A stretch of 64,000 nucleotides of DNA from IMG/VR virus record IMGVR_UViG_3300050336_000035, positions 103,494 to 167,493 of that record; one strand, 5' to 3'. Source of the stretch: a virus (lineage: Duplodnaviria > Caudoviricetes). Under the pieces are notes generated by a model. It saw only the letters and a list, made by a program, of their open reading frames with translations, was not told the origin of the DNA and did no database searches. Shown here piece by piece: positions 1 through 12,038 of this stretch (its first letter is position 1; the number at the start of each line of letters is the position of its first letter). Made by a program: the position numbers and the translations under genes.

Positions 1-1
1 A

Positions 2-127
2 CTTAGTGATTTTCTATATAGAAATAAACATATAATAAATGATTTTGAAGATATGTCTGATTGGAGCATGAATAAAGTAATTAAAAATATTTTAACTAAT
101 ACAAATAAATTTTTAAAAACAACATAA
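2..127 (+). CDS. 3' end of hypothetical protein (partial)
   Basis: Open frame from the window edge to TAA 125-127, which begins a boundary site. Confidence 0.6.
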   Translation, partial: LSDFLYRNKHIINDFEDMSDWSMNKVIKNILTNTNKFLKTT

Positions 128-167
128 AAGACAAATTTTATAATGTTTAAGAAAGGAGATAAGCAAT

Positions 168-548
168 ATGTTTTGGACTAAGAAAAATAAAGTAGAAGTA
201 AACCATATAAGAGTATGTGAAGTTAATCAAGGGTTGCCTGAGTGTAATAGTGTTAATAAACTTAGAGAATATCAGCAACAACTCAAAAATATAAAAAATT
301 CTTCATTAACTGATATCTCTGCAAAATACTTGAATGTTGTTAATGATAGTTATTTAAGAAGTGAGTTATATTGTATTGAAGTTATATTAAATCAATTAAT
401 TCGTCGAACAGATAATACATATATTAATTTTGAAGAAAGATTTAAAGCTTTCGGAAAAGAAATTGATGACTATATAAAGAAAGATTGTATAATAGATGAT
501 TTAATTAAGAAAATAAAAGTTGAGAAAAACATATTAGGAATTGAATAG
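168..548 (+). CDS. Hypothetical protein
   Basis: RBS GAAAGGAG; stop inside a boundary site. Confidence 0.8.
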   Translation: MFWTKKNKVEVNHIRVCEVNQGLPECNSVNKLREYQQQLKNIKNSSLTDISAKYLNVVNDSYLRSELYCIEVILNQLIRRTDNTYINFEERFKAFGKEIDDYIKKDCIIDDLIKKIKVEKNILGIE

Positions 549-585
549 AATTCAGTATTTATAGCATTTAAATTGGAGGTTTTTT

Positions 586-792
586 ATGAAAATTTGTAAC
601 AACACAACAGGAATACGTGATTGTAATGATAAATATTATAAATATGGGTTATGTATTAAGAATAGAAAATGTAAAGATTCTTTATTTGTAAATGAAAATG
701 TTATTAAACAATTGATAATTGAAAAATGTGAATATAATAAAATATTTGCTGATTGTATAGATAATCTTATTTATGAAGCAAAAACAATATGA
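586..792 (+). CDS. Small Cys-containing hypothetical protein
   Basis: RBS GGAGG; stop inside a boundary site. Confidence 0.75.
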   Translation: MKICNNTTGIRDCNDKYYKYGLCIKNRKCKDSLFVNENVIKQLIIEKCEYNKIFADCIDNLIYEAKTI

Positions 793-831
793 AATGCCGT
801 TTTTATTTTACATGAAAGGAATGAAGTTTTT

Positions 832-1065
832 ATGGAAGGATTTGTTATTGATATAAATAAATTTAATCCAACACCTGATTATCAAGATTTTAAAAAAATA
901 GATGAAACTATAAATTATTTATTAATAAAAAGAATACCATTTGTTACAACTCAAGATATAATAGTTTTTCATGAAGATATTTACTTGAAATATAAAGATA
1001 ATATAAATTATTGTGTTAATGAATTACAAAATGAATTTTTAACAGAAACAATTAAAAAAATATAA
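832..1065 (+). CDS. Hypothetical protein
   Basis: RBS GAAAGGA. Confidence 0.7.
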   Translation: MEGFVIDINKFNPTPDYQDFKKIDETINYLLIKRIPFVTTQDIIVFHEDIYLKYKDNINYCVNELQNEFLTETIKKI

Positions 1066-1100
1066 AGCATATAAAATGCGTTTCATCAAAAGGAGAAAAC

Positions 1101-1421
1101 ATGATAAAGTATAAAGGGTTAAAATATAGAAAATTCATTAACTTTATTAATAAAGAGTTGCCAACATTTAATATTATAAAGTTAAAATTATTAAAAGGTT
1201 ATGACACAATTGAAGTTAATAAAACTGATAAAGTTTTTGCTCTTTATTATGTTGAAGAGAAAGCAATATACTTACCAACATCAAATGAGGAAGAAATTAC
1301 ATATACAAATTTAGCCCATGAATATGTTCATGCATGGCAAGACGAGAACAATAAAGACTTTAGTGAAGAAGAAGCCGAATTAAAAGCAAGTGAATTATAT
1401 AATAAGTTTAAAATAAGATAA
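1101..1421 (+). CDS. Small zincin-like metallopeptidase domain protein
   Basis: LAHEYVH (HExxH) followed by EEEA; RBS AAGGAG. Confidence 0.7.
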   Translation: MIKYKGLKYRKFINFINKELPTFNIIKLKLLKGYDTIEVNKTDKVFALYYVEEKAIYLPTSNEEEITYTNLAHEYVHAWQDENNKDFSEEEAELKASELYNKFKIR

Positions 1422-1459
1422 AAATGTGTTTTTATTTAAAAAGGAGAAAAGAGGATATA

Positions 1460-2173
1460 ATGATAAAAGTAGGAATTACTGAACGTGGAGATGCAGGATT
1501 AGATTTCTCATGGGTAAACAAATTACTTGATGTAAACATTATTATTACTAAGAATTTAAATGATATAATAATTCAACATCTTATTGATAATAAAAATAAA
1601 ATAATATTACATATGACTTGTACTGGACTTGGAGCAACAAAAGTAGAACCTAATGTTCCCAATGTGAAATTTACTCACAATCAAATATTAAAACTAATTG
1701 ATAGTGGATTTCCTGTAAATCAAATTGTTTTAAGAGTAGACCCTATTATACCATTACAAATTACATTAGAGCAAAGGGTTAAAAAAGTATTAGATTTATT
1801 TAAAGATACAGGAATTAAGAGGGTTAGATATTCATTTTTAGATATGTATCCGCATGTAAAAGAAAGATTAACAAAAGCAGGATTGAATTTACCATATAAT
1901 ACATTTTGTTGTCCAAATTATATGAAAGAAGATGCTTTAAAGTTGTTAAAAGAATATGAAAATATTTATGAATTTGAAGCATGTGCTGAAAACACCTTTC
2001 ATCAATTAGGATGCATTTCACAAAAGGATTTTGATATTTTAGGGATTGAAGAAAAAGCAATACCATCAGGATATCAAAGAAAAGGCTGTTTGTGTATAGC
2101 TGGTAAAACTGAATTGTTGACCAATAAAAAGAAATGTCCTCATGGATGTTTGTATTGTTACTGGAAAGGATAA
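1460..2173 (+). CDS. DUF1848-like Fe-S / radical-SAM-related protein
   Basis: LRVDPII motif and C-terminal CLC...CPHGCLYCYW; start moved to ATG 1460 behind RBS GAGGA. Confidence 0.7.
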   Translation: MIKVGITERGDAGLDFSWVNKLLDVNIIITKNLNDIIIQHLIDNKNKIILHMTCTGLGATKVEPNVPNVKFTHNQILKLIDSGFPVNQIVLRVDPIIPLQITLEQRVKKVLDLFKDTGIKRVRYSFLDMYPHVKERLTKAGLNLPYNTFCCPNYMKEDALKLLKEYENIYEFEACAENTFHQLGCISQKDFDILGIEEKAIPSGYQRKGCLCIAGKTELLTNKKKCPHGCLYCYWKG

Positions 2174-2219
2174 TGTAATAAAATTGGGATTCTACGCTAA
2201 AAAGAGAGGATGAAATAAT

Positions 2220-2504
2220 ATGAGTGAAATAAGTATTGGAGAAGAAAATTATAACTATTTTACAAATGGAAGATATAAAGCAAATAATTCTCCAAAAGCA
2301 AAAAGTATTAAAAAGAAATTAGAAGATAATGGTCATACTAATGTTTTTGTATGGTATGAAAAGCTAGGTAAAGCAATGGAAATGTGTGGTTGTAGTGGAG
2401 GATATATGTATACTTCTGACCAAAGTCCAATAGAACCTATAGGATATTCCTTTGATGAGGCAATGATAACAATAGAGAAAAAATGGCATAAGATATCAAA
2501 ATAA
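2220..2504 (+). CDS. Hypothetical protein
   Basis: RBS GAGAGGA. Confidence 0.75.
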   Translation: MSEISIGEENYNYFTNGRYKANNSPKAKSIKKKLEDNGHTNVFVWYEKLGKAMEMCGCSGGYMYTSDQSPIEPIGYSFDEAMITIEKKWHKISK

Positions 2505-2600
2505 TTGTGATAAATTCTCAGATTCATTCACTTTTTAAAAGTGATTTGTGGTATCTGAACTAACGTCCGCTTAACCAACAAGCATATTGAATCAATGCTT
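2502..2600 (-). ncRNA. Candidate omega/guide RNA, left copy (scaffold 2600-2522, guide from 2521 outward)
   Basis: Own promoter TTGACA-17-TATACT (2636-2608, -); multi-hairpin scaffold covarying with the right copy; guide boundary is inferred. Confidence 0.65.
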
Positions 2601-2607
2601 AGTTATA

Positions 2608-2636
2608 AGTATAAGGAATATTGTGGCAAATGTCAA
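2608..2636 (-). promoter_or_regulatory. sigmaA promoter firing outward through the left end of the TnpB cassette
   Basis: TTGACA-17 bp-TATACT on -; no ORF downstream. Confidence 0.8.
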
Positions 2637-2677
2637 TAAGTTTTACTAATACTTAATTAATATTAAAATAATATCTA

Positions 2678-2706
2678 TTGACAATACCGTTTAATTAATA
2701 TATACT
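2678..2706 (+). promoter_or_regulatory. sigmaA promoter for the RHH gene
   Basis: TTGACA-17 bp-TATACT. Confidence 0.8.
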
Positions 2707-2778
2707 AATAATTGTAAAAGCAACATCTCTTCCGAACCATTACATAATAATGTATAATTAATATGGGAGAGTGATGAT

Positions 2779-2940
2779 ATGCCAAAGTTTAAAAATAATC
2801 ATATTGGATTTAATGTAAGTGATAAATTAAAGAAAAAGACAGAAGAAGTTTCTAAAGAACATGAAATGAGTTTAGCTGATTTTATGAGATACATTTTACA
2901 AAAATATATAGATGAATACGAAATCAAGAAAAACAAGTAG
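2779..2940 (+). CDS. Ribbon-helix-helix (CopG-like) regulator, 53 aa (not in ORF track)
   Basis: MPKFKNNHIGFNVSDKLKKKTEEVSKEHEMSLADFMRYILQKYIDEYEIKKNK; RBS GGGAG. Confidence 0.75.
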   Translation: MPKFKNNHIGFNVSDKLKKKTEEVSKEHEMSLADFMRYILQKYIDEYEIKKNK

Positions 2941-3020
2941 ATATTAAGAGCAATAATATTCTAGTTTAGCTTATTCGGTTTATATTAAGATATTTAACCT
3001 GTTTTAATATCGTTAGTAAT

Positions 3021-3049
3021 TTGATATTTAGTAATTATTCCCTTATAAT
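3021..3049 (+). promoter_or_regulatory. sigmaA-like promoter for 3111..3554 and the tnpB-like gene
   Basis: TTGATA-17 bp-TATAAT. Confidence 0.65.
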
Positions 3050-3110
3050 AAAAATGTAAGTTAAAGGTTGCAACCACACTTACCTAAATTATTATAAGGG
3101 AGTGTAGATT

Positions 3111-3554
3111 ATGGTTAAAATGGATTATGAAAGAAAGTGTGAGTTAAAAAAATTACAACAGTTTCAAGGACACAGAGTTGAAGTTAGTTTTAACACTCAT
3201 ACACATGATAACAATGTGATGGTTACATTTGTTTATAACAACTTTGATTTTGATAACGGCGAATACATATTGTGTCTTTTTGATTCAAAGGATGAAACAT
3301 TGAATGCTAGACTTGAGAAGAATCTTATAACAACTGTAACAAACATTGATGAAGATATATATCATGATGTTGTACATATTTATACTAATAATTTTATACT
3401 CAGCATAACAACTCTTGAAGAACCCATACGCCTACCTAGATGTAATCATTGTGGAAATGAAATTGAATATAATGAATATTGGCTTGATGGTGCTTATGGT
3501 AGGTTAAGACTTTGCGAAGATTGTTGTTTGGATTTGTATCCTGATAACGAATAG
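3111..3554 (+). CDS. Hypothetical protein with C-terminal Zn finger; paralog of 35653..36159
   Basis: Shares HTHDNxVM, FDFDNGE.xLCLFDS.DE.LN.R and YxDVVHIYT with the paralog; CNHC and CEDC. Confidence 0.85.
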   Translation: MVKMDYERKCELKKLQQFQGHRVEVSFNTHTHDNNVMVTFVYNNFDFDNGEYILCLFDSKDETLNARLEKNLITTVTNIDEDIYHDVVHIYTNNFILSITTLEEPIRLPRCNHCGNEIEYNEYWLDGAYGRLRLCEDCCLDLYPDNE

Positions 3555-3581
3555 AAAATTAAATAGAAAGGAGGAGTAATC

Positions 3582-4985
3582 ATGGCTACTGAAATGAGAG
3601 CAATTAAATTCTATTCTAATAATAAAACAACAACTGAAGATTTCAATAAAGGTATTAACTTTCTATCTGAATGCCAAGAAGTTGAAAATGAATTGTTAGA
3701 GTATTATTGGACTAACTTTACTGAAGTTATTAGAGCGAAATCACAACTTGTTTTTTATAAGAATAGAGTCATGATTACTTCTCCTGCTACAAAATTTCAA
3801 CACTATCAACAAATTTTATTTATGGTATTTAGAACACTTAAAAGTTTAGAAGAAAGAATTACTCAAAAAATACATTTTAAATTTGATGATAAAATGAAAC
3901 AAAGAATATATAACTATTGTAGTAAATTCGTTTTTGATTGGGATAAACTTGAAACATATGTATCTAAACAAATTAAACAGTATAAAAAGAAAGACAAAAA
4001 GTATTATGACTTCTTAATAGAAGTTCAAAAAATTATTGATAATGAACAGGCTTTTTTAAAACTAAAACAAGATATAGAAAATAAGTTTTGGGATTTAAAA
4101 AATAAAATTAATCAACCTGTTAAGAAATCTAAGCAAATATGGGCTACAACTTTTCATACTGTAGATATCGAAAAGTATAATGATTATTGGGTATTTGTGA
4201 TTGACACCAATAAATTTTTAAGTCCTCGCAATATGGATAAGTTTAAAATAGTTGTAAGTATTTCTGATTATCACAGAGATATTCTTAATTCCAATACACT
4301 TCAAAATACTTTTTCTATTAAGTTAAATGATTATGGTAGAATCGAAATTTTTGGAGCATATGAAATTGATATAAATTATCCAACACCTAATCCTGTTGAT
4401 ACTATTGGCATAGATATAGGTTTGAAGAAACTTATTACATCATCTGATGGTGAATTTATTGAACAGAATAAAAACATTGTAAAGAAAGCTCAAAAGTTAA
4501 TTAAGAATCAAGCTAATAGACAGAGTTTGGAAGCTCATATGAAAAAGAAATTAGAAGATGAGAATTTTACTTTACCTGATAAAAATTATATGAAGAAACA
4601 AAACAAATTAAGTAGATTTGTTCAATGTGATAATAGGTATAAAGTTAAACAATTTCTCAAAGGTAGGGAAGATACTCATATCATTATGGAAGATTTGCAT
4701 TTAAATGATGCCAAGACATATAGTAAAGAAGTAAATTATATGTTAAGAAGGATGAAGATACAAGGCATTAAAAATGACATTCTAAAATACACAAAAGAGA
4801 TGGGCATCAAGACTACACAAGTAAATCCTAGATATACGAGTATTGAGTGTCCTATATGTGGCTGTATTGATAAAAAAAATAGACAGACACAAGAAACATT
4901 TAAATGTGTTAAATGTAGTCATACAGATAATGCAGACCACAATGCTAGTATTAATATTGAAAATAAATATTTAAAGGCACAATAA
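3582..4985 (+). CDS. tnpB: TnpB/Cas12f-like RNA-guided endonuclease
   Basis: RuvC-I GIDIG, RuvC-II IMEDL, Zn ribbon TSIECPICG...FKCVKC, RuvC-III NADHNASINI; 467 aa; D-E-D triad intact. Confidence 0.9.
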   Translation: MATEMRAIKFYSNNKTTTEDFNKGINFLSECQEVENELLEYYWTNFTEVIRAKSQLVFYKNRVMITSPATKFQHYQQILFMVFRTLKSLEERITQKIHFKFDDKMKQRIYNYCSKFVFDWDKLETYVSKQIKQYKKKDKKYYDFLIEVQKIIDNEQAFLKLKQDIENKFWDLKNKINQPVKKSKQIWATTFHTVDIEKYNDYWVFVIDTNKFLSPRNMDKFKIVVSISDYHRDILNSNTLQNTFSIKLNDYGRIEIFGAYEIDINYPTPNPVDTIGIDIGLKKLITSSDGEFIEQNKNIVKKAQKLIKNQANRQSLEAHMKKKLEDENFTLPDKNYMKKQNKLSRFVQCDNRYKVKQFLKGREDTHIIMEDLHLNDAKTYSKEVNYMLRRMKIQGIKNDILKYTKEMGIKTTQVNPRYTSIECPICGCIDKKNRQTQETFKCVKCSHTDNADHNASINIENKYLKAQ

Positions 4986-4992
4986 TAAATAT

Positions 4993-5088
4993 AAGGCTTT
5001 AATTTAACGCCTATAGTTAAGCGTACATTAGTACAGATACTATAAATCGCTTTTAAAAGTGAATGAATTGTAGGATTTATATGCTTAT
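4993..5088 (+). ncRNA. Candidate omega/guide RNA, right copy (scaffold 4993-5068, guide from 5069 outward)
   Basis: Directly downstream of tnpB, the usual omegaRNA position; hairpins AGGC/GCCT, TATAGT/ACTATA, GTAC/GTAC, TCGCTT/AAGTGA covary with the left copy. Confidence 0.65.
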
Positions 5089-5105
5089 TATATAAAATAT
5101 AAAGT

Positions 5106-5684
5106 GTGGTGATAATAATAGCAAAAACAGAAATGACATTAAATCTAGAAAAAGAATTGTATTCAAGTACAAACAAAATGGGCGTGTTTGGTTGTTTTGA
5201 AGTTACTATAGGTTGGTATGGCAAAGAACGTGTTGATTATATTACATATGATACTAAAGGGGTTTGGCGTTGTTATGAAATAAAAGTGTCTAAAGCAGAC
5301 TTTCATAGTAAGGCAAAGAAAACATTTGTTGGACATTTTAATTATTATGTTATGCCAAGAGAATTATATGAGGAAGTTAAAGACGAAATACCGAAACATA
5401 TAGGTGTACATATTGGTAGTGGTTGTATAAAGAATGCAAAGAGACAAGAATTATCTGTTGATGAGAAAATATTAAAAGATTCTTTAATACGTTCATTGTG
5501 TCGAGATGCAGAAAAAATTTATACTTCAGAAAATGTTAATTATATTAATAGACTTAAAAAACAAATATCAAATCTTGAAAAAGAAAGTAAAGAATGGAGA
5601 AAAGACTACTACGATTTATATAAAAAAGTTAGAGAATTGTATGGTAGAGATTGGGATAAGGATTTGATTAATTTTGATGAGTAG
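5106..5684 (+). CDS. MmcB-like PD-(D/E)XK nuclease domain protein
   Basis: EVTIG...RVDYI...CYEIKVSKADFHS. Confidence 0.7.
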   Translation: MVIIIAKTEMTLNLEKELYSSTNKMGVFGCFEVTIGWYGKERVDYITYDTKGVWRCYEIKVSKADFHSKAKKTFVGHFNYYVMPRELYEEVKDEIPKHIGVHIGSGCIKNAKRQELSVDEKILKDSLIRSLCRDAEKIYTSENVNYINRLKKQISNLEKESKEWRKDYYDLYKKVRELYGRDWDKDLINFDE

Positions 5685-5919
5685 GACTATAATTATGAAT
5701 AGAAAAACACTAATAAACATACTCAATAATTATGATGGAATTGTAGCAAAAGAAGTATCTAAAGAAGAATATGATAATTTAATCATAGAAGATACTATAC
5801 CCGTTTTAGATGATATCAAAGGTATAATAATTAAGAAATCTTATTATCCAGATTATGAAGGTTGTAAGTGGTTGATTACATACAAGATATTGGCTGAAAT
5901 AAAAGTAAAGAGTTTATAA
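5674..5919 (+). CDS. Hypothetical protein
   Basis: Overlaps the upstream gene; stop inside a boundary site. Confidence 0.7.
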   Translation: MMSRTIIMNRKTLINILNNYDGIVAKEVSKEEYDNLIIEDTIPVLDDIKGIIIKKSYYPDYEGCKWLITYKILAEIKVKSL

Positions 5920-5959
5920 AATCGGGGTTCTGTTGTGTTTTTAGATATTAAAATAATAT

Positions 5960-5988
5960 TTGACAATTCTCAAACTTGATATTATAAT
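5960..5988 (+). promoter_or_regulatory. Consensus sigmaA promoter inside a cassette
   Basis: TTGACA-17 bp-TATAAT. Confidence 0.85.
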
Positions 5989-6033
5989 TATCTTGAGGTG
6001 ATAAAATTCATCAACTTAAAGAGAGGAAAAAAT

Positions 6034-6204
6034 ATGTTTAAAAAACTTAAAGAATGGATTTTAAATAAAATACTCAAAAGAGACTATACAATGACTTATG
6101 TTATGGGTGTAGATATTTATGGTACAGAATATGGCTATAAGAAAGAAGGATATAGAGATAAAAGTGGTCAAATTCACATTAGTAAAGTTACACTCTTTGA
6201 ATAA
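6034..6204 (+). CDS. Hypothetical protein
   Basis: ATG behind RBS GAGAGG; stop inside a boundary site. Confidence 0.65.
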   Translation: MFKKLKEWILNKILKRDYTMTYVMGVDIYGTEYGYKKEGYRDKSGQIHISKVTLFE

Positions 6205-6239
6205 ATCAGCAATTCTATGATAAATAAAGGAGAATTTTT

Positions 6240-6404
6240 ATGATTAATTGTAATGCAGAATGTAAATATGAGTGTAATGGAGAATGTATTTTACATCCAG
6301 ACAAAATAAAACTTGTAATAAGAAAATATAGTGATGATTTTAAAAAACAATATTTAGAATGTGATTCTCAAATTCTTGAAGATAGAGACATGGGAATTAG
6401 ATAA
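6240..6404 (+). CDS. Small Cys-rich hypothetical protein, 54 aa (not in ORF track)
   Basis: RBS AAGGAG; MINCNAECKYECNGEC...; fills the space between two boundary sites. Confidence 0.7.
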   Translation: MINCNAECKYECNGECILHPDKIKLVIRKYSDDFKKQYLECDSQILEDRDMGIR

Positions 6405-6436
6405 AATCAAACTTCTATGATGATTGGAGAAAAAAC

Positions 6437-6760
6437 ATGAATGATATAATAATAAGTTTACTTAAAGAAAAGATAGATTATTATTCTCATAATGCTAAAT
6501 TGTTATATGATGATTATAAATATTACTGTTATGTTAAGGCTTTACGTCAGGAACTATACAGCACATTAAAAATTAGAAATGAATTCAAAAGAGCATTAAA
6601 AGAATATAAGAAACTATTACATAATGTACAGATAGAAAAGTATAAAAAAGCAATAAAAGAATATAGAGAACATCCAGACAAATATGCAGAAGATATTTTG
6701 GGAGTAAAGCTATATCCATATCAAAAAGAAATATTAAAATATTTTTATAAAGCAAGATAG
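6437..6760 (+). CDS. Hypothetical protein; C-terminus resembles a terminase large-subunit N-terminal motif
   Basis: YREHPDKYAEDILGVKLYPYQKEIL. Confidence 0.65.
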   Translation: MNDIIISLLKEKIDYYSHNAKLLYDDYKYYCYVKALRQELYSTLKIRNEFKRALKEYKKLLHNVQIEKYKKAIKEYREHPDKYAEDILGVKLYPYQKEILKYFYKAR

Positions 6761-6796
6761 AAAACTTAATTCATCACAAATTGAAAGGAAAACAAA

Positions 6797-7114
6797 ATGA
6801 ATAATAATTTACCTTGCGAAGATAATGATTGTGCATATTATAAAATGGATTACCAAGATAGAACTTATTGTAGTAAGAAAAATAGATTCATAGATAATGA
6901 AACAGGTGAATGCGAATATTTTACGCCTTCTCAAACTTGTGATTTGTGCAAACATTCTTATATGAAAGTCTATGAAACTGGTTCTATAGATGATATTGAA
7001 TATTATTGTAAATTACAAAATGGGAAATTAATATATGATGATTTAAGTCCTTATATGATAAATTTTGCAGATTTTCCTAAATGTAATATAAACAAATTTG
7101 AAAAGAAGGACTGA
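6797..7114 (+). CDS. Cys-rich hypothetical protein
   Basis: RBS GAAAGG; multiple Cys. Confidence 0.75.
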   Translation: MNNNLPCEDNDCAYYKMDYQDRTYCSKKNRFIDNETGECEYFTPSQTCDLCKHSYMKVYETGSIDDIEYYCKLQNGKLIYDDLSPYMINFADFPKCNINKFEKKD

Positions 7115-7155
7115 ATCAATTCACCATTTTAATCACTTTTAGAAAGGAGGTAATT

Positions 7156-7593
7156 ATGTCTGAGGAAAGTTTAAAACTTAGTAAAACAAGAAAAGAATAT
7201 TGTGAATACATATATTATAGAATACTAAATAAATTAAAAGAAGCCAATGAACATCAATTACTAGCTTTTGCTATGTTAGGTATGCATTTATGCTTAAGAC
7301 AATCTGATATTCTTAAATTAAAATGGGAACAAATTGATTTTGAAAATATGAAAATAAACAATGTGCATCTTCTTAAAGGTGGTTACATTGGCTCTCTTGA
7401 TTTAGAAATTAGATTGGTTAGTGCTTTAAAGAAATGGTATGAAAATACTGATGACAAAACAATGATATTTCCTAAATTAAAAAGATATGAAACAGGAAAT
7501 AAAATTGGTGAGTTAATAGGAGATACAACATTTAATAATCACGATTTAAGAAGTATTGGTTTATGTTTAAAATTGCAAGGGGTTATATATTAG
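7156..7593 (+). CDS. Truncated tyrosine recombinase catalytic-domain protein
   Basis: LRQSDILKLKWEQIDF and HDLR boxes present; lacks the core-binding domain and the H/W-Y region. Confidence 0.75.
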   Translation: MSEESLKLSKTRKEYCEYIYYRILNKLKEANEHQLLAFAMLGMHLCLRQSDILKLKWEQIDFENMKINNVHLLKGGYIGSLDLEIRLVSALKKWYENTDDKTMIFPKLKRYETGNKIGELIGDTTFNNHDLRSIGLCLKLQGVIY

Positions 7594-7635
7594 CATGAAA
7601 ATATCTTTTATTTAAAAAAGAGGAGTAATATAAAA

Positions 7636-7797
7636 ATGTTAAATGTTGATAAAAATATAATTAATTTTATAAATAGTGATGAATATAAGTGGTATAAAGA
7701 TGGTACAAAAAATGGAATTTGGATTGGATTATTTTTAGGGTTTTGGCTTGGAATGTTAATGATGACTATATTAGTTATAATAGGATTCTTTAAATAA
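7636..7797 (+). CDS. Small membrane protein, 53 aa (not in ORF track)
   Basis: RBS GAGGAG; hydrophobic C-terminus; stop inside a boundary site. Confidence 0.7.
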   Translation: MLNVDKNIINFINSDEYKWYKDGTKNGIWIGLFLGFWLGMLMMTILVIIGFFK

Positions 7798-7822
7798 AAC
7801 TACTCTTCTAAACACATTTTTA

Positions 7823-8710
7823 TTGAAAGGATTGAAGAAAATATCTAAATATAAATATAATGATTATCACAAAGAGATAAATGGAAAAGAATATAAAAAA
7901 TGTACATTACATAATGAGTACTTTCCTAATGATTCTGAATGGTTTATTTGTTCATCTGATTTTTTCTTTGTTAACAAAACAAACAAGACCGATGGGTTAT
8001 ATCCCTATTGTAAAAAATGTTCAAGTAAAAAATATATGAAATGGGAGAAAGAACATCCTGAAGAATATTTAGCACATAATTTCAGACAAAATCGAAGAAA
8101 AGAAAAAATAGAAGCAAGAAGAAAAATATCTCAGCAACGAAGAGAAAATGGTTACTATGATGATTATTTTGAATTGAATCCAGAAAAGAAAAAACAATAT
8201 GCTGAAAATCATCGAGACCATGATATAACAAATGCAGAATGGATAGCTAATAAAAACTTTTTTAAAAATGAAAATGGGGAATGGGTATGTGCCTATTGTG
8301 GAATGACAGAAAAGGAACATAAGACTATTAGAAGAGAGCAACTTCACAAAGAACATGTTGAACACAATGGATATAATGATGTAAGAAATTGTGTTCCTGC
8401 TTGTTACACTTGTAACTCTAGTAAATGGCAATATGACATGGAAACTTGGTATAGAGAACAAACATTCTTTAACGAAGATAATCTTGCTAAAATAAAACTT
8501 TGGTGTTCAAATGAATATAAAAAATATATTGAAGATAAACCACCATATATTATAAAACGAAGTAGAGTAAATGATGATAATGGCAAATATCATTATGAAT
8601 ATAATTTATGGACTGTTGATGTAATGAGAAATATAGTTGAAATAATTTATACAGGTAATAAGAAAAAGGATATGATTAATTACATAAACAATAATAAATT
8701 AGAAAATTGA
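7823..8710 (+). CDS. HNH endonuclease
   Basis: CAYCG...HKEHV...NCVPACYTCNSSK; N-terminal Zn motif; start uncertain. Confidence 0.85.
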   Translation: MKGLKKISKYKYNDYHKEINGKEYKKCTLHNEYFPNDSEWFICSSDFFFVNKTNKTDGLYPYCKKCSSKKYMKWEKEHPEEYLAHNFRQNRRKEKIEARRKISQQRRENGYYDDYFELNPEKKKQYAENHRDHDITNAEWIANKNFFKNENGEWVCAYCGMTEKEHKTIRREQLHKEHVEHNGYNDVRNCVPACYTCNSSKWQYDMETWYREQTFFNEDNLAKIKLWCSNEYKKYIEDKPPYIIKRSRVNDDNGKYHYEYNLWTVDVMRNIVEIIYTGNKKKDMINYINNNKLEN

Positions 8711-8715
8711 AACAT

Positions 8716-8739
8716 AGGCGTAGAGCCTATTCTACGCCT
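8716..8739. terminator. Hairpin after the HNH gene
   Basis: AGGCGTAGA-gcctat-TCTACGCCT. Confidence 0.6.
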
Positions 8740-8792
8740 TAAAAAACATGATGAAACATGAAATTCATGCTGTTATTGGAAGGAATTAAATT

Positions 8793-9227
8793 ATGAGTTA
8801 TGTCAATGATTATCAAAAGAAGCGCAAAGATGAATATTTAGAACAGGGTTATGATTTAGCACAAGCTAATATTAAATTTAAACGTTGGATGCAAAATCAC
8901 ACTACTAAACAAAAGAAAGTATTTAAAAGAAATGGATTAAAATATATTTATGTTAATTATACACCTTATATAGATTCTGGATGCGAAAAGTGGTATGTAG
9001 ATATTGATTATAATACAAATATATGCTATCTATATCATAAAAATAGAGAAAATGGAACATATCATTTTCAACAAGAATTCAACAAAGGTAAATTTATTAC
9101 TGATAATTTGATTAATATTTGTAATTATATATGGGGACATTCAAATAAACATATTCAAAAAGATTTTAATAACACATTAAGAGATAAATTATATAAAGCA
9201 GGAATTGAAGAAACACTATTGAGTTAA
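8793..9227 (+). CDS. Hypothetical protein
   Basis: RBS GGAAGG. Confidence 0.75.
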   Translation: MSYVNDYQKKRKDEYLEQGYDLAQANIKFKRWMQNHTTKQKKVFKRNGLKYIYVNYTPYIDSGCEKWYVDIDYNTNICYLYHKNRENGTYHFQQEFNKGKFITDNLINICNYIWGHSNKHIQKDFNNTLRDKLYKAGIEETLLS

Positions 9228-9288
9228 TATGAAATTGGACTTTCATTTGGTTTATTTAGTTATGATATAAAAAAAATAATTTTTTAAT

Positions 9289-9630
9289 ATGAAAGGGAAG
9301 AAAATAATGAAAGAGATTTTAACAACTTTTGGTTTACCTATTTTAACTGGTATATTTGCATTTTTAGGTTCTATATACAAAAGTAGAATTGACTTAAAAA
9401 AGCAAATAGATTTAAACAATGCAGAATTAGAAAAAGTACGTGAGCAATGCAATAACGAAATCGAAAAAATCAAGGCACAAGCCGAGACTCAAGCACAATT
9501 ATATGAAAAGAATGCACAAACCGACATAACAACTACTTTTATGAATACTTTATTTAAGAATCCAAAAATTTCAAATACTATTAATGATTTTATGATTAAA
9601 GAAATGAATAAATCATTTTTGTCAAAATAA
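9289..9630 (+). CDS. Membrane-anchored coiled-coil protein
   Basis: N-terminal TM segment then coiled coil; true start may be Met7. Confidence 0.7.
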   Translation: MKGKKIMKEILTTFGLPILTGIFAFLGSIYKSRIDLKKQIDLNNAELEKVREQCNNEIEKIKAQAETQAQLYEKNAQTDITTTFMNTLFKNPKISNTINDFMIKEMNKSFLSK

Positions 9631-9705
9631 AACCCTTGCTACATAAGGGTTTCAGAACACAAAAATGTGATGAAATGGATATTTTATAATGAGGTTAATT
9701 TAATT

Positions 9706-9840
9706 ATGGATAATAAAGAAAAAGAAAAAATTAAGAAATTTGCAGAAGCTTTATTTGATAAAAGAATGTTAGAAATATTAAAACCCTATCAATATAATCA
9801 GAAGATTTGTAAATTTATTGAAATTAAAAATATAAAATAA
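9706..9840 (+). CDS. Small hypothetical protein, 44 aa (not in ORF track)
   Basis: RBS GAGGT; lies between two boundary sites. Confidence 0.55.
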   Translation: MDNKEKEKIKKFAEALFDKRMLEILKPYQYNQKICKFIEIKNIK

Positions 9841-9861
9841 AAGAATAATTAGTGAGGATAT

Positions 9862-10200
9862 ATGAATTTACATAAGTTTTTTATAGATAAAATAAATGAA
9901 GAAATATATAAAGCTCTAGGAGTTAGTGACTCATTGTTTGTGTCAACATCAGCAACAACCACTAATAATTGTGCCGTGTCAATAGAAGAAATAAAACTAG
10001 CATTAGAAAATGTAAGACCTGAACATGCAGTTTTACTTAGTAATTATGCTCCACATGGAACTGATATTTTTGAAATCGAGAATCCTTTGCCAGATAAATA
10101 TTTCTGTAAAAAATTACTTTTACTAAATGCAGATTGTTATGAATCTTTGCTTAAGAAAATTTTAGAAGAATATAACTGTGATATAAAAGTTTATAGATAA
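9862..10200 (+). CDS. Hypothetical protein
   Basis: RBS GAGGA; stop inside a boundary site. Confidence 0.75.
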   Translation: MNLHKFFIDKINEEIYKALGVSDSLFVSTSATTTNNCAVSIEEIKLALENVRPEHAVLLSNYAPHGTDIFEIENPLPDKYFCKKLLLLNADCYESLLKKILEEYNCDIKVYR

Positions 10201-10240
10201 AATTATGTTTTGGTCATATTATTAGAAAGGAAATTTTTAA

Positions 10241-10411
10241 ATGAAAAATATTGAAGAAGTAAGGAAAATTTGCGGTCATTATTGGAATAAGCCAGAGTAT
10301 AAACCACAGTTAAATGAACATAGATGTCATCATATTGCTGGTAATAGTTGCCCAAATAGTTTTAAAGATTGCCCATTATACAAATTAGTTCAAAAAAATA
10401 TTATAAAATAA
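10241..10411 (+). CDS. Small Cys/His-rich protein, 56 aa (not in ORF track)
   Basis: RBS GAAAGG; MKNIEEVRKICGHYW...CPLY. Confidence 0.65.
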   Translation: MKNIEEVRKICGHYWNKPEYKPQLNEHRCHHIAGNSCPNSFKDCPLYKLVQKNIIK

Positions 10412-10437
10412 TAGATTCATTATGAAATGAGGTAACT

Positions 10438-10656
10438 ATGAGAAAACCATTTAGAGATATTATTGATATGCCTGAATATCAAGCAGGAATGGAAGATGGT
10501 TGGGAGACTTTAAAAGATGTATCTAAGTTAGATAAATTCTATATTAAGGGTTTAGTTAAATGGTACGTCTGTAAAACACCTAAAGGAAAAACATTTAAAT
10601 TTGCTTATAAAGACACACCGAAAGGCAGGATGTGGATTAAATTTAAGTTTGATTAA
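10438..10656 (+). CDS. Hypothetical protein
   Basis: RBS GAGGT. Confidence 0.7.
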   Translation: MRKPFRDIIDMPEYQAGMEDGWETLKDVSKLDKFYIKGLVKWYVCKTPKGKTFKFAYKDTPKGRMWIKFKFD

Positions 10657-10676
10657 TTGATGTTAATATAATATAT

Positions 10677-10705
10677 TTGACAATATTATGTCCCTATGTT
10701 ATACT
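10677..10705 (+). promoter_or_regulatory. sigmaA promoter with extended -10 for the SLT-nrdD block
   Basis: TTGACA-17 bp-TATACT with TG extension. Confidence 0.8.
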
Positions 10706-10783
10706 AATATTGTAATGAAAGGGGTGATGCTATATGCTCTATCCAAGCATGACTAATATTAATTAAACGAAGGAGATGGTGAA

Positions 10784-11449
10784 GTGAAAAAACTTATAAC
10801 TTTAGCTTTATGCACAGGGGTATTTATTATCAGTATTTGGTCATATAATTCTAATGTACAGAGTGCTAAAATTACAAGCTACGAAACACAAAAAGAAATT
10901 GATGCATTAAAATTTGAAAAAGGAAAACAATTACTTAAATCTATTCAGGAAGAGAAAAGAAAAGAAGTAATAAATAATAAAATAATACAAGCGCAAATAC
11001 AAGTACAAAAAGAAATTCCACTATATGACATACCACTTAATATTGATATACAAAAATACATATACAAAATTAGCAAAGAAAAAAATATACCCCATGAATT
11101 AATATTGGGTGTAATAAAAACTGAAAGTGATTTTAGACCTAATCAAACACATAAAAATAAAAATGGAAGCATAGATATTGGACTTATGCAGGTAAACTCG
11201 TGTCACGTTGATATATGTAAAGAATTAGGTATAACCAACTTATATGACCCTTATCAAAACATCAAAATAGGAGCAACATTATTAGCAAACATCTATAATA
11301 GTTACCCAAACATACATAAAGCGATGATGGTTTATAATATGGGACTTGGAGGAGCTAGGCGAAATTGGAAAGTAGGCAGGAGTAGTACTGATTATAGTAG
11401 AAAAGTAGTAAATAATATTAATATAATTTTAGCTTGTAAGCAGGAGTAA
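10784..11449 (+). CDS. Lytic transglycosylase (SLT domain) with N-terminal anchor
   Basis: VIKTESDF, DIGLMQVN, YNMG motifs. Confidence 0.9.
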   Translation: MKKLITLALCTGVFIISIWSYNSNVQSAKITSYETQKEIDALKFEKGKQLLKSIQEEKRKEVINNKIIQAQIQVQKEIPLYDIPLNIDIQKYIYKISKEKNIPHELILGVIKTESDFRPNQTHKNKNGSIDIGLMQVNSCHVDICKELGITNLYDPYQNIKIGATLLANIYNSYPNIHKAMMVYNMGLGGARRNWKVGRSSTDYSRKVVNNINIILACKQE

Positions 11450-11457
11450 TAAAACAT

Positions 11458-11643
11458 ATGATACGATTGGAACTATGCACTTATACCAGTTGCCCAAAAT
11501 CTAAAGAATGTTATAGAACTGTTGCCGAAATTGGAATTAACGGTTTTGCAAACTTTAAAAATATTTGTGGTGACTGGAATAATTATAAATATTATTATGA
11601 AATAGGTGATAAGCCTACAAGAAAGGAGGAATTAGAAAATTGA
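11458..11643 (+). CDS. Small Cys-rich hypothetical protein
   Basis: RBS AGGAG; CxxxxCPxxxxCYR. Confidence 0.7.
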   Translation: MIRLELCTYTSCPKSKECYRTVAEIGINGFANFKNICGDWNNYKYYYEIGDKPTRKEELEN

Positions 11644-12038
11644 CAAATATAAATAGATACATATCTGCACAAGAGAAAAATAATACAGAAGAAAAATGTA
11701 AAAAAGAATTTATTCAATTCAAGAAAATGCTAAGAAATTTTGAAGATTTAATAGACCATTGGTATGATGAAAAGTGTGAAATTGATAATTCATACAAAAA
11801 TCATTTAAATGACGAAATTTCTTACGAAGTCGCTAAAAACAAGGCTTGTAACCCTTGTGACTGTAAGGACACAAATGCAATAAAAGATGCATTTCATGAA
11901 AAATTAGATTTAACCAATATTAGGAAGCAGTTTCTTGATTCATATCGTGGTGATATTCCAGATGAATCATTAAATTGGATTTACAAAACATTTGCATACA
12001 TAGAAGTTAATATTAATAATATAATTTCAAAGGAGTAA
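11640..12038 (+). CDS. Hypothetical protein
   Basis: RBS AGGAGG; TTG start. Confidence 0.7.
   Translation: MTNINRYISAQEKNNTEEKCKKEFIQFKKMLRNFEDLIDHWYDEKCEIDNSYKNHLNDEISYEVAKNKACNPCDCKDTNAIKDAFHEKLDLTNIRKQFLDSYRGDIPDESLNWIYKTFAYIEVNINNIISKE

What the first reader, a model, noticed from the sequence alone, without database searches (positions are those of the whole stretch)
2502..5088. TnpB/Cas12f-like cassette with two outward-facing guide-RNA scaffolds, one at each end
Seen: the apparent terminal inverted repeats (2522-2575 vs 5016-5068, 47/54 identical) behave like structured RNA read outward. Left (-): aagcattgattcaatatgcttgttggttaagcggacgttagttcagataccacaaatcacttttaaaaagtgaatgaat. Right (+): aaggctttaatttaacgcctatagttaagcgtacattagtacagatactataaatcgcttttaaaagtgaatgaat. 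Differences are mostly compensatory or G-U on the outward strand (GGAC/GTTC vs GTAC/GTAC; TGGT/ACCA vs TAGT/ACTA; TCAC/GTGA vs TCGC/GTGA; AAGCA/TGCTT vs AGGC/GCCT). The left copy has a dedicated TTGACA-17-TATACT promoter starting at the first hairpin. The right copy directly follows tnpB, with a weaker TTGAAA-18-AATAAT inside the gene end. No TnpA or serine transposase is present. Established: IS200/605 TnpB uses one omegaRNA at the right end, with a guide copied from the flank. Inference: a two-guide variant with compact ~80-nt scaffolds.
Basis: partly seen in the sequence, partly recalled or inferred. Interest (0 to 1): 0.95.

Follow-up and report, generated by a model that had tools for sequence, protein, structure and literature searches.

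The report
Phage TnpB cassette with two guide RNAs
A 2.5-kb gene cassette in a large phage carries a small RNA-guided nuclease (TnpB/Cas12f-like) and, unusually, a copy of its structured guide-RNA scaffold at each end pointing outward, which looks like a transposase-free element that could cut rival genomes on both sides of its own insertion site.

Summary
It has four helices and invariant single-stranded motifs.

The window is part of a complete 167-kb, 26.7% GC phage with three such cassettes. Each holds a regulator, a Zn-ribbon protein and a 467-aa TnpB with intact D-E-D.

- **Covariation:** across 19 ends from 14 elements, 93% of cells pair and 16 of 19 pairs show compensatory changes (0/500 shuffles). 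The six left copies alone give 97% and 10 of 19.
- **Left copies:** all six have a conserved TTGACA-17/18-TATAAT promoter firing at helix 1.
- **Right copies:** this copy follows tnpB in every family member found (43-80% identity). The left copy exists only in one subclade, so it is a derived second copy.
- **Transposases:** the phage has no Y1 or serine transposase.

New here: each scaffold ends in a near-half-site of an 18-bp dyad, ATRAAW-N6-WTTYAT. This dyad occurs 51 times in the genome against 8 expected, at gene junctions. One dyad in this phage is the unoccupied site of a relative's insertion.

Best reading: a transposase-free, dyad-targeting homing cassette with two flank-derived guides. 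Expression, binding and cleavage are untested. Other first-stage notes on this genome saw the same modules.

The parts
2502..2521 (-). Putative left guide: the 20 nt that follow the left scaffold on the minus strand (dyad spacer, outer half-site, then 8 nt of flank).
   Evidence: Near-identical left scaffolds of cassettes A and B (78/80) lose all similarity exactly here. There is no second match in the genome with fewer than 4 mismatches. Use as a guide is inferred.
2510..2527 (.). Left 18-bp dyad ATAAAT-TCTCAG-ATTCAT. The inner half is the 3' end of the left scaffold.
   Evidence: Matches the motif ATRAAW-N6-WTTYAT: 18 in the window against 2.8 expected, and 51 in the genome against 8.0 expected, enriched only at spacer length 6.
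2522..2601 (-). Left RNA scaffold, 80 nt, read outward (leftward). Order: helix 1, outer helix P2 enclosing helix 2, helix 3, then a 3' tail.
   Evidence: Covariance-model hit at 88.7 bits. The MFE fold gives the same four helices, -16.6 kcal/mol, z -2.3. Covariation in the left-only alignment: 97% of cells paired, 10 of 19 pairs with changes on both sides.
2608..2636 (-). Promoter of the left RNA (TTGACA-17-TATACT). Its -10 hexamer ends 6 nt before the scaffold.
   Evidence: Found by the promoter scan at 11/12 matches. The same hexamers and spacing occur upstream of all six left copies in four contigs.
2678..2706 (+). Divergent promoter for the regulator gene (TTGACA-17-TATACT).
   Evidence: Promoter scan, 11/12 matches.
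2779..2940 (+). 53-aa ribbon-helix-helix (Arc/CopG-like) regulator. The other five cassettes carry an XRE-type HTH protein at this position.
   Evidence: PHROGs Arc-like repressor 3e-4 and CopG-like 4e-4. The HTH proteins at the same position in cassettes B, C, L009, L010 and L011 are shown.
3021..3075 (+). Promoter (TTGATA-17-TATAAT) followed by the palindrome GGTTGCAACC (3066-3075). Probably the operator for the Zn-ribbon/tnpB operon.
   Evidence: Promoter scan. The palindrome is unique in the window, with 0.01 expected. The operator role is inferred.
3111..3554 (+). 147-aa beta-rich protein with a C-terminal CxxC...CxxC motif, function unknown. It is conserved directly upstream of tnpB in all two-ended cassettes.
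   Evidence: Seven homologues align, in two subtypes, with an invariant C111 and an invariant C135/C138 CxxC pair. There is no Pfam or PHROGs family and only 4 clusters in 5.8 billion proteins. The AlphaFold model has pLDDT 59.9, too weak to search.
3582..4985 (+). 467-aa TnpB/Cas12f-like RuvC nuclease.
   Evidence: Pfam Cas12f1-like_TNB at 3e-15. D278, E370, D452 and four zinc-finger Cys are invariant in 35 family members. The nearest solved structures are Cas12f 9nzq (9e-24) and TnpB entries.
4957..4986 (+). Weak promoter-like site inside the end of tnpB (TTGAAA-18-AATAAT).
   Evidence: Promoter scan, 10/12 matches. It is not consistently kept in relatives. The right RNA may instead be cut from the tnpB transcript, which is inferred.
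4993..5068 (+). Right RNA scaffold, 76 nt, read outward (rightward). This is the omegaRNA-like element found after every tnpB of the family.
   Evidence: Covariance-model hit at 94.1 bits. The same element follows tnpB in L009-L258. The MFE fold gives the same helices.
5063..5080 (.). Right 18-bp dyad ATGAAT-TGTAGG-ATTTAT. The inner half is the 3' end of the right scaffold.
5069..5088 (+). Putative right guide: dyad spacer, outer half-site, then 8 nt of flank.
   Evidence: Similarity between the cassette copies ends at 5068. There is no second target in the genome. In L094 against this genome, the corresponding 14 nt pre-exist in the unoccupied site.

Best explanation
The cassette is a transposase-free, RNA-guided homing element of a phage.

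**Right end.** The right-hand ~78-nt element is the omegaRNA of the TnpB-like nuclease. It has a 5' scaffold whose 3' extension, copied from the adjoining DNA, serves as the guide.

**Left end.** In one subclade of the family the scaffold was duplicated in inverted orientation at the left end and given its own sigma-70-type promoter. The cassette therefore makes two guide RNAs, one programmed by each flank.

**Target.** Both scaffolds end in an imperfect half-site of an 18-bp dyad that marks gene junctions throughout this phage. Each guide begins with the dyad spacer and the true outer half-site.

**Proposed mechanism.** In a co-infecting relative that lacks the cassette, the intact dyad half-site lies next to the protospacer and acts as the TAM. 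The nuclease cuts beside the dyad, and repair from the cassette-bearing genome copies the cassette in. In the carrier, the half-site next to the protospacer is replaced by the scaffold's near-miss version, which protects self.

**Shown:** the conserved structure with covariation at both ends, the conserved left promoter, an intact nuclease, the absence of a transposase, the dyad motif, and one unoccupied target dyad.

**Inferred:** transcription, nuclease binding, where the guide starts, the identity of the TAM, and homing itself.
For: - **Structure.** 19 ends from 14 elements: 93.2% of cells paired, 16 of 19 pairs with changes on both sides, and 0/500 shuffles reach any measure. Slid controls give 29-48%. 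Left copies alone: 97.4% paired, 10 of 19 pairs, slid controls 31-47%.
- **Strand.** G-U cells number 16 on the outward strand against 7 on the other.
- **Left promoter.** All six left copies keep TTGACA (TTTAAA in L009)-17/18-TATAAT (TATACT in A) 5-7 nt before helix 1, although the spacer sequence differs.
- **Right copy.** It follows tnpB in every relative down to 43% protein identity. The left copy is found only in this genome's A, B and C and in L009-L011, all of which also carry the regulator and Zn-ribbon genes.
- **Copy number.** There are three cassette copies at unrelated loci, with tnpB about 80% identical at nucleotide level. The A and B left scaffolds are 78/80 identical, and similarity stops exactly after the scaffold.
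- **Nuclease.** The D-E-D residues and the zinc finger are invariant.
- **No transposase.** The 167-kb genome has no Y1 or serine transposase.
- **Dyad.** 51 copies against 8.0 expected, enriched only at spacer length 6.
- **Half-site asymmetry.** The inner half-site is ATRAAA in 1 of 19 ends and the outer in 13 of 19.
- **Unoccupied site.** L094 carries a 1.63-kb tnpB-plus-scaffold insert where this phage has a bare dyad at genome 3979-3996. The flank is 84% identical up to the junction, and 17 of 20 nt match across the dyad.
Against: - There are no transcript, binding or cleavage data.
- The two dyad spacers flanking one cassette differ (3 of 6 identical in A, B and C). The two guides therefore cannot both match one simple unoccupied dyad.
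- The sequence 5' of each would-be protospacer, read from the opposite flank, gives no common TAM (my analysis of the ends printed).
- Scaffold ends ATGAAT and ATAAAT are themselves allowed dyad half-sites: 23 of 90 natural half-sites end in T. The proposed self-protection therefore rests on a single base.
- Covariation cannot separate RNA from folded single-stranded DNA.
- The thermodynamic signal of single sequences is modest (z -1.5 to -2.3).
- Only one unoccupied site was found, and it belongs to a single-ended relative.
Confidence: 0.55

Rival explanations
1. Only the right RNA is a working guide. The left copy is kept as a DNA end, a long terminal inverted repeat. Some machinery acting at the dyads (a phage tyrosine recombinase or a single-strand annealing protein) needs it to move or retain the whole cassette. 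Any left transcript is incidental.
For: - The ends are symmetrical, and each rebuilds a complete dyad with the flank.
- The genome encodes four tyrosine-recombinase-like proteins.
- The cassette has moved to three different dyads without any transposase.
- Symmetrical ends are known for DDE-linked TnpB elements (PMC10691335).
Against: - A DNA end would need only the terminal arm. Yet the internal helices of the left copies covary and the single-stranded motifs are invariant.
- A correctly placed promoter is conserved in all six left copies.
- There is no target-site duplication, and the spacers are unequal.
Confidence: 0.2
2. The left RNA is made and bound by the nuclease but acts as a regulator or decoy, not as a targeting guide. 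It might titrate TnpB, or act as an antisense RNA against the 3' end of the upstream gene.
For: - It has its own strong promoter, divergent from the regulator promoter.
- Transcription would run into the end of ORF 2220-2504 in antisense.
- The left copies share a distinct helix-1 sequence type. Whether they form one lineage is unresolved.
Against: - The scaffold keeps every feature of the right copy, including the 3' tail that abuts the flank.
- Neighbouring genes differ among the six left copies, so no common antisense target exists.
Confidence: 0.12
3. The structured elements are folded single-stranded DNA recombination sites, like integron attC sites or IS200/IS605 end hairpins, used by a recombinase. 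They are not RNAs at all.
For: - Covariation is equally compatible with DNA hairpins.
- The elements abut a recombinase-like dyad.
- A remnant of another TnpB's tail followed by helix 3 and a degenerate dyad, with a half-dyad upstream, at genome 64898-65086 suggests breakage at dyads.
Against: - The element is tied to tnpB in all relatives, while the other 45 dyads in the genome have no such structure beside them.
- There is no Y1 transposase.
- The left-copy promoter is conserved.
- There is a mild excess of G-U pairs on the outward strand.
Confidence: 0.08

Closest known systems
IS200/IS605-family TnpB with omegaRNA (OMEGA systems, e.g. ISDra2; TnpB-only IS1341-type elements)
   Same: - A compact RuvC nuclease with D-E-D residues and a zinc finger.
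- A structured RNA encoded just after tnpB whose 3' extension is the adjoining flank.
- A likely role in homing or retention by cutting the unoccupied site.
   Different: - No TnpA in the element or the genome.
- The ends are inverted copies of each other rather than asymmetric LE/RE hairpins on one strand.
- A second, promoter-driven scaffold at the left end.
- The scaffold is only about 78 nt and lies wholly outside the ORF.
- The target is a palindromic 18-bp dyad rather than a 4-5-nt TAM next to the left end.
CRISPR-Cas12f (type V-F)
   Same: It is the best sequence match among solved structures (9nzq). The protein size is similar.
   Different: - There is no CRISPR array, and no adaptation-gene family hit among the cassette ORFs scanned; a tracrRNA was not looked for.
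- The guides are fixed by the flanks rather than acquired.
DDE(IS630)-linked TnpB and eukaryotic Fanzor elements with symmetrical ends (PMC10691335)
   Same: A TnpB-family nuclease inside an element with inverted ends, plus a separate HTH protein.
   Different: - There is no DDE transposase here.
- The inverted ends are full structured scaffolds with covariation and a promoter, not short TIRs.
- There is no TA duplication.
Free-standing homing endonuclease genes of T4-like phages (Seg, Mob)
   Same: - A nuclease gene wedged between conserved phage genes. Relatives sit next to nrdD/nrdG, dNK and methylase genes.
- Expected to spread by cutting the cassette-free allele in mixed infections.
   Different: Recognition would be by RNA guides copied from the flanks, not by protein-DNA contacts.
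Integron attC or pdif-module cassette arrays
   Same: Many short dyad sites partition accessory genes into one-to-few-gene units. The cassette is bounded by two such sites.
   Different: - The sites are 6-6-6 with unequal spacers.
- No recombinase has been linked to them.
- The link to an RNA-guided nuclease has no counterpart in those systems.

Membership tests
TnpB/Cas12 RuvC nuclease superfamily | Split RuvC with catalytic D, E, D and a C4 zinc finger between RuvC-II and RuvC-III | tested here: met
   Pfam Cas12f1-like_TNB at 3e-15. D278, E370, D452, C423, C426, C442 and C445 are invariant in 35 relatives. PDB profile hits to Cas12f and TnpB.
OMEGA (TnpB plus omegaRNA) | Conserved structured RNA at the 3' side of tnpB, adjoining the element boundary | tested here: met
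   A covariance-model hit lies directly after tnpB in all 14 elements, with covariation. Similarity between copies stops at the scaffold's last base.
OMEGA (TnpB plus omegaRNA) | The RNA is bound by TnpB and its flank-derived 3' end guides TAM-dependent DNA cleavage | not testable with these tools
   No expression or biochemical data are available.
IS200/IS605 transposon | Y1 (HUH) TnpA in the element or elsewhere in the genome | tested here: not met
   PF01797 gives no match in the complete 167-kb genome, although the control genomes do match. No cassette ORF hits it.
IS200/IS605 transposon | Asymmetric left and right ends with hairpins on the same strand, and no terminal inverted repeats | tested here: not met
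   The ends are inverted copies, about 76-80% identical over 76-80 nt.
IS607 transposon | Serine recombinase TnpA | tested here: not met
   PF00239 gives no match in the genome.
CRISPR-Cas type V-F | CRISPR array next to the effector | tested here: not met
   There are no direct-repeat arrays in 2000-5600 or tandem arrays in 1-12000.
TIR DNA transposon (DDE type) | An encoded DDE transposase and a target-site duplication | tested here: not met
   No cassette ORF hits a transposase family. The flanks show no direct repeat, and the spacers differ.
Site-specific recombination cassette (integron/pdif-like) | Cassette bounded by recombinase core sites with matching spacers, and a cognate recombinase | tested here: inconclusive
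   Dyads bound the cassette, and four tyrosine-recombinase-like genes exist. However, the spacers are unequal and no recombinase is linked to the sites.

The most novel reading that the evidence does not exclude
This would be a new kind of selfish element: an RNA-guided cassette drive.
- It has no transposase at all.
- It lives at palindromic dyads that punctuate the accessory genome of a phage lineage.
- The dyad half-site serves as the TAM.
- The scaffold's own 3' end is a one-base-off mimic of that half-site, which shields the carrier.
- Two outward guides cut both junctions of the allelic segment in a rival phage, so that recombination replaces it with the whole three-gene cassette.
Probability: 0.3. 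Interest if true: 0.9.

Novelty: new variant of a known kind. Interest (0 to 1): 0.8.

Why it matters
- **Biology.** If both RNAs work, this would be, as far as the three literature searches run here show, the first natural TnpB element that programmes itself from both flanks and does without any transposase. It would tie RNA-guided nucleases to the free-standing homing lifestyle of phage endonucleases.
- **Evolution.** It would show a step by which a single fixed guide can multiply, a question relevant to how guide arrays arose.
- **Phage genomes.** It points to an 18-bp dyad system that organises accessory genes in a group of low-GC phages.
- **Tools.** A 467-aa nuclease with a roughly 78-nt scaffold lying outside the ORF is a compact candidate for editing.

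Tried and rejected
- **Rfam.** A scan of 1500-6500 at E up to 1 found nothing.
- **Related phages.** The search with the flanking genes found only 40-62% identical proteins, so no unoccupied site for cassettes A, B or C.
- **Exact look-ups.** The two neighbouring proteins found only same-sample contigs that still carry the cassette. One contig breaks inside the left scaffold.
- **Flank comparison.** Flanks of L010-L013 have no usable homology to this genome.
- **Zn-ribbon protein.** It has no Pfam or PHROGs family and no useful Atlas neighbour. The AlphaFold model has pLDDT 59.9, too poor for a fold search, so none was run.
- **Dyad as a fourth RNA hairpin: rejected.** In distant relatives the inner half changes (ATAYAA, ACGTAA) without any compensating change in the outer TTTTAT.
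- **TA or other target-site duplication, and duplication of one dyad: rejected.** The two spacers of a cassette share only 0-3 of 6 bases.
- **A common TAM read from the opposite flank:** none is apparent from the end sequences.
- **Tree of the 19 scaffolds.** It is too poorly resolved to show or exclude a single origin of the left copies.
- **Complex prediction.** Not sent, because no protein-protein binding is claimed.
Full report
**Setting.** The window is bases 103494-167493 of a complete 167,493-bp virus record with direct terminal repeats and 26.7% GC. The finding lies in a run of short co-directional genes.

The repeat finder reports the two inverted arms. A 25-nt core is unique to these two places, with 0 expected by chance.

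The ORF between the arms, 3582-4985, is a 467-aa TnpB/Cas12f-like protein (Pfam Cas12f1-like_TNB 3e-15). Its nearest solved relatives are Cas12f and TnpB. In 35 relatives the RuvC D-E-D residues and four zinc-finger cysteines are invariant.

**The cassette is a repeated unit.** The genome has three copies, A (this window), B and C. Their nucleases are 78-79% identical, and all six ends are recovered by DNA search and by a covariance model.

Each copy has the same order:
- left scaffold on the minus strand;
- a small regulator (Arc-like RHH in A, XRE-type HTH in B and C);
- a 135-155-aa protein with a C-terminal zinc-ribbon-like motif;
- the nuclease;
- right scaffold on the plus strand.

B has an extra 65-aa ORF between tnpB and the right scaffold, so the scaffold does not depend on overlapping the coding sequence. 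Similarity between copies stops exactly at the last base of each scaffold. The left scaffolds of A and B are 78/80 identical, yet the next six bases are unrelated.

**The protein family and its RNA.** The nuclease belongs to a tight family of about 64 clusters at 42-80% identity, followed by a steep drop to generic TnpBs. I fetched 14 elements in phage-like contigs, isolate-derived viral records and one Bacillota MAG.

A covariance model built from 19 ends finds the scaffold directly after tnpB in every one. A left, inverted copy exists only in A, B, C and in L009, L010 and L011. These are exactly the elements that also carry the regulator and the zinc-ribbon gene.

The other members are solo genes wedged between phage genes such as nrdD/nrdG, dNK and DNA methylases. 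The right RNA is therefore ancestral and universal. The left RNA is a derived second copy within the 75-80% identity group.

**Structure.** RNAalifold gives helix 1, an outer helix enclosing helix 2, and helix 3, joined by the invariant stretches GGTTAAGC and AGATACC.

| Set | Cells paired | Pairs with changes on both sides | Shuffles reaching observed | Slid partners |
|---|---|---|---|---|
| 19 ends | 93.2% | 16 of 19 | 0 of 500 | 29-48% |
| 6 left copies | 97.4% | 10 of 19 | 0 of 500 on four measures; 8 of 500 on pair types | 31-47% |

The left copies are therefore under selection for the fold, not merely for a terminal sequence. Single-sequence folding recovers the same helices with modest z-scores. 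G-U cells favour the outward strand 16 to 7, which is only mild support for RNA over DNA.

**Promoters.** The minus-strand promoter at 2636-2608 is the joint best match in the region. All six left copies keep TTGACA (TTTAAA in L009), a 17-18-nt spacer of varying sequence, and TATAAT (TATACT in A), 5-7 nt before helix 1. This is the strongest argument that the left scaffold is transcribed outward from its first base. The right copies have no consistent promoter and may be processed from the tnpB transcript, which is an inference.

**No transposase.** The whole genome lacks Y1_Tnp and Resolvase domains. It does encode four tyrosine-recombinase-like proteins and a fourth TnpB of another clade.

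**The dyad.** Following a lead from earlier notes on this genome, I tested the sequence after each scaffold. The last 6 nt of the scaffold, the next 6 nt and the following 6 nt form ATRAAW-N6-WTTYAT.
- The motif occurs 51 times in the genome against 8.0 in shuffles. Spacers of 4, 5, 7 or 8 nt show no excess.
- The window has 18 copies against 2.8 expected.
- The sites sit at gene junctions, often just upstream of the next ribosome-binding site, and sometimes contain a stop codon (compare).
- They also occur in relatives' loci.
- The other dyads have no scaffold-like hairpin beside them.

In every family member the scaffold's last six bases resemble a half-site but are almost never the common form ATRAAA (1 of 19). 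The outer half is ATRAAA in 13 of 19 (Fisher p 1e-4, although the rows are not independent). In distant members the inner half drifts without any compensating change in the outer half. The dyad is therefore not an RNA hairpin but a DNA site that pre-exists.

**An unoccupied site.** L094, from a Bacillota MAG, is syntenic with bases 1.7-6.9 kb of this phage. Where L094 has a 1.63-kb insert (leader, tnpB, scaffold), this phage has a bare dyad at genome 3979-3996. The left flank is about 84% identical up to the junction. Across the dyad, 17 of 20 bases match, including 5 of 6 spacer bases. The bases following the scaffold are thus target-derived, as expected of a flank-copied guide, and the family inserts at dyads.

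**What does not fit.**
- The two spacers flanking one cassette are different (0-3 of 6 identical).
- There is no target-site duplication.
- Reading the TAM from the opposite flank gives no consensus.
- Both guides therefore cannot address one simple empty dyad. The rival allele may contain two dyads with another cassette between them, or the two guides may serve different alleles.
- The proposed self-protection rests on small differences between ATRAAT and ATRAAA.
- The guides have no second target in the genome.

**Literature.** Three searches found no report of a TnpB element with guide scaffolds at both ends. Altae-Tran et al. (PMC10691335) describe symmetrical ends only for DDE-linked TnpBs. 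A 2026 preprint shows that Arc-type RHH proteins repress IS605 promoters, which fits the regulator in cassette A.

**Verdict.** Function remains to be shown at the bench.

Noticed in passing
window 124-141, 789-806, 1418-1435, 8751-8768, 9229-9246 and 13 more; whole genome 51 sites: An 18-bp dyad ATRAAW-N6-WTTYAT lies at gene junctions. It is six-fold over-represented, and only with a 6-nt spacer. Its flanks tend to be A-rich (AAAAA-YRYR) on the outside. Its function is unknown.
   Followed up: partly
genome 54611-55810 (outside the window): A fourth TnpB of 399 aa from a different clade, again without TnpA. Its downstream region contains TTTTATTCTGATTTTGAG, also seen next to the dyad at genome 3979.
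   Followed up: partly
genome 64898-65086 (outside the window): A remnant: the last ~40 codons of another TnpB, followed by a copy of helix 3 and a degenerate dyad (ATGAAT-CAGCGA-TTTGAT). It begins at a half-dyad. This suggests breakage or recombination at dyads.
   Followed up: partly
window 7156-7593: A 145-aa ORF that hits Phage_integrase over roughly its first 100 profile positions. It is one of four tyrosine-recombinase-like genes in the phage and a candidate enzyme for the dyads.
   Followed up: no
window 3066-3075: The perfect palindrome GGTTGCAACC lies just after the promoter of the Zn-ribbon/tnpB operon. It is unique in the window, and GCAACC/GGTTGC half-sites also lie downstream of cassette C. 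It is a likely operator of the cassette regulator.
   Followed up: partly
L257:5100-5450 versus L258:4730-5083: Two contigs with the identical nuclease differ by a ~340-bp one-gene insertion. It is bounded by a repeated AATTAATTAAA(T/C)AGTAAATAT, so this is a different kind of cassette boundary from the dyad.
   Followed up: no
own genome 3997-4095 and L094:3315-3415: A roughly 100-nt non-coding stretch, about 84% conserved between two phages, lies just before the dyad (it contains GGCACTGTTTGGGTATT). It is possibly a structured RNA and was not examined.
   Followed up: no
window 1424-2173: A DUF1848 protein (7.8e-18) sits two genes upstream of the cassette.
   Followed up: no
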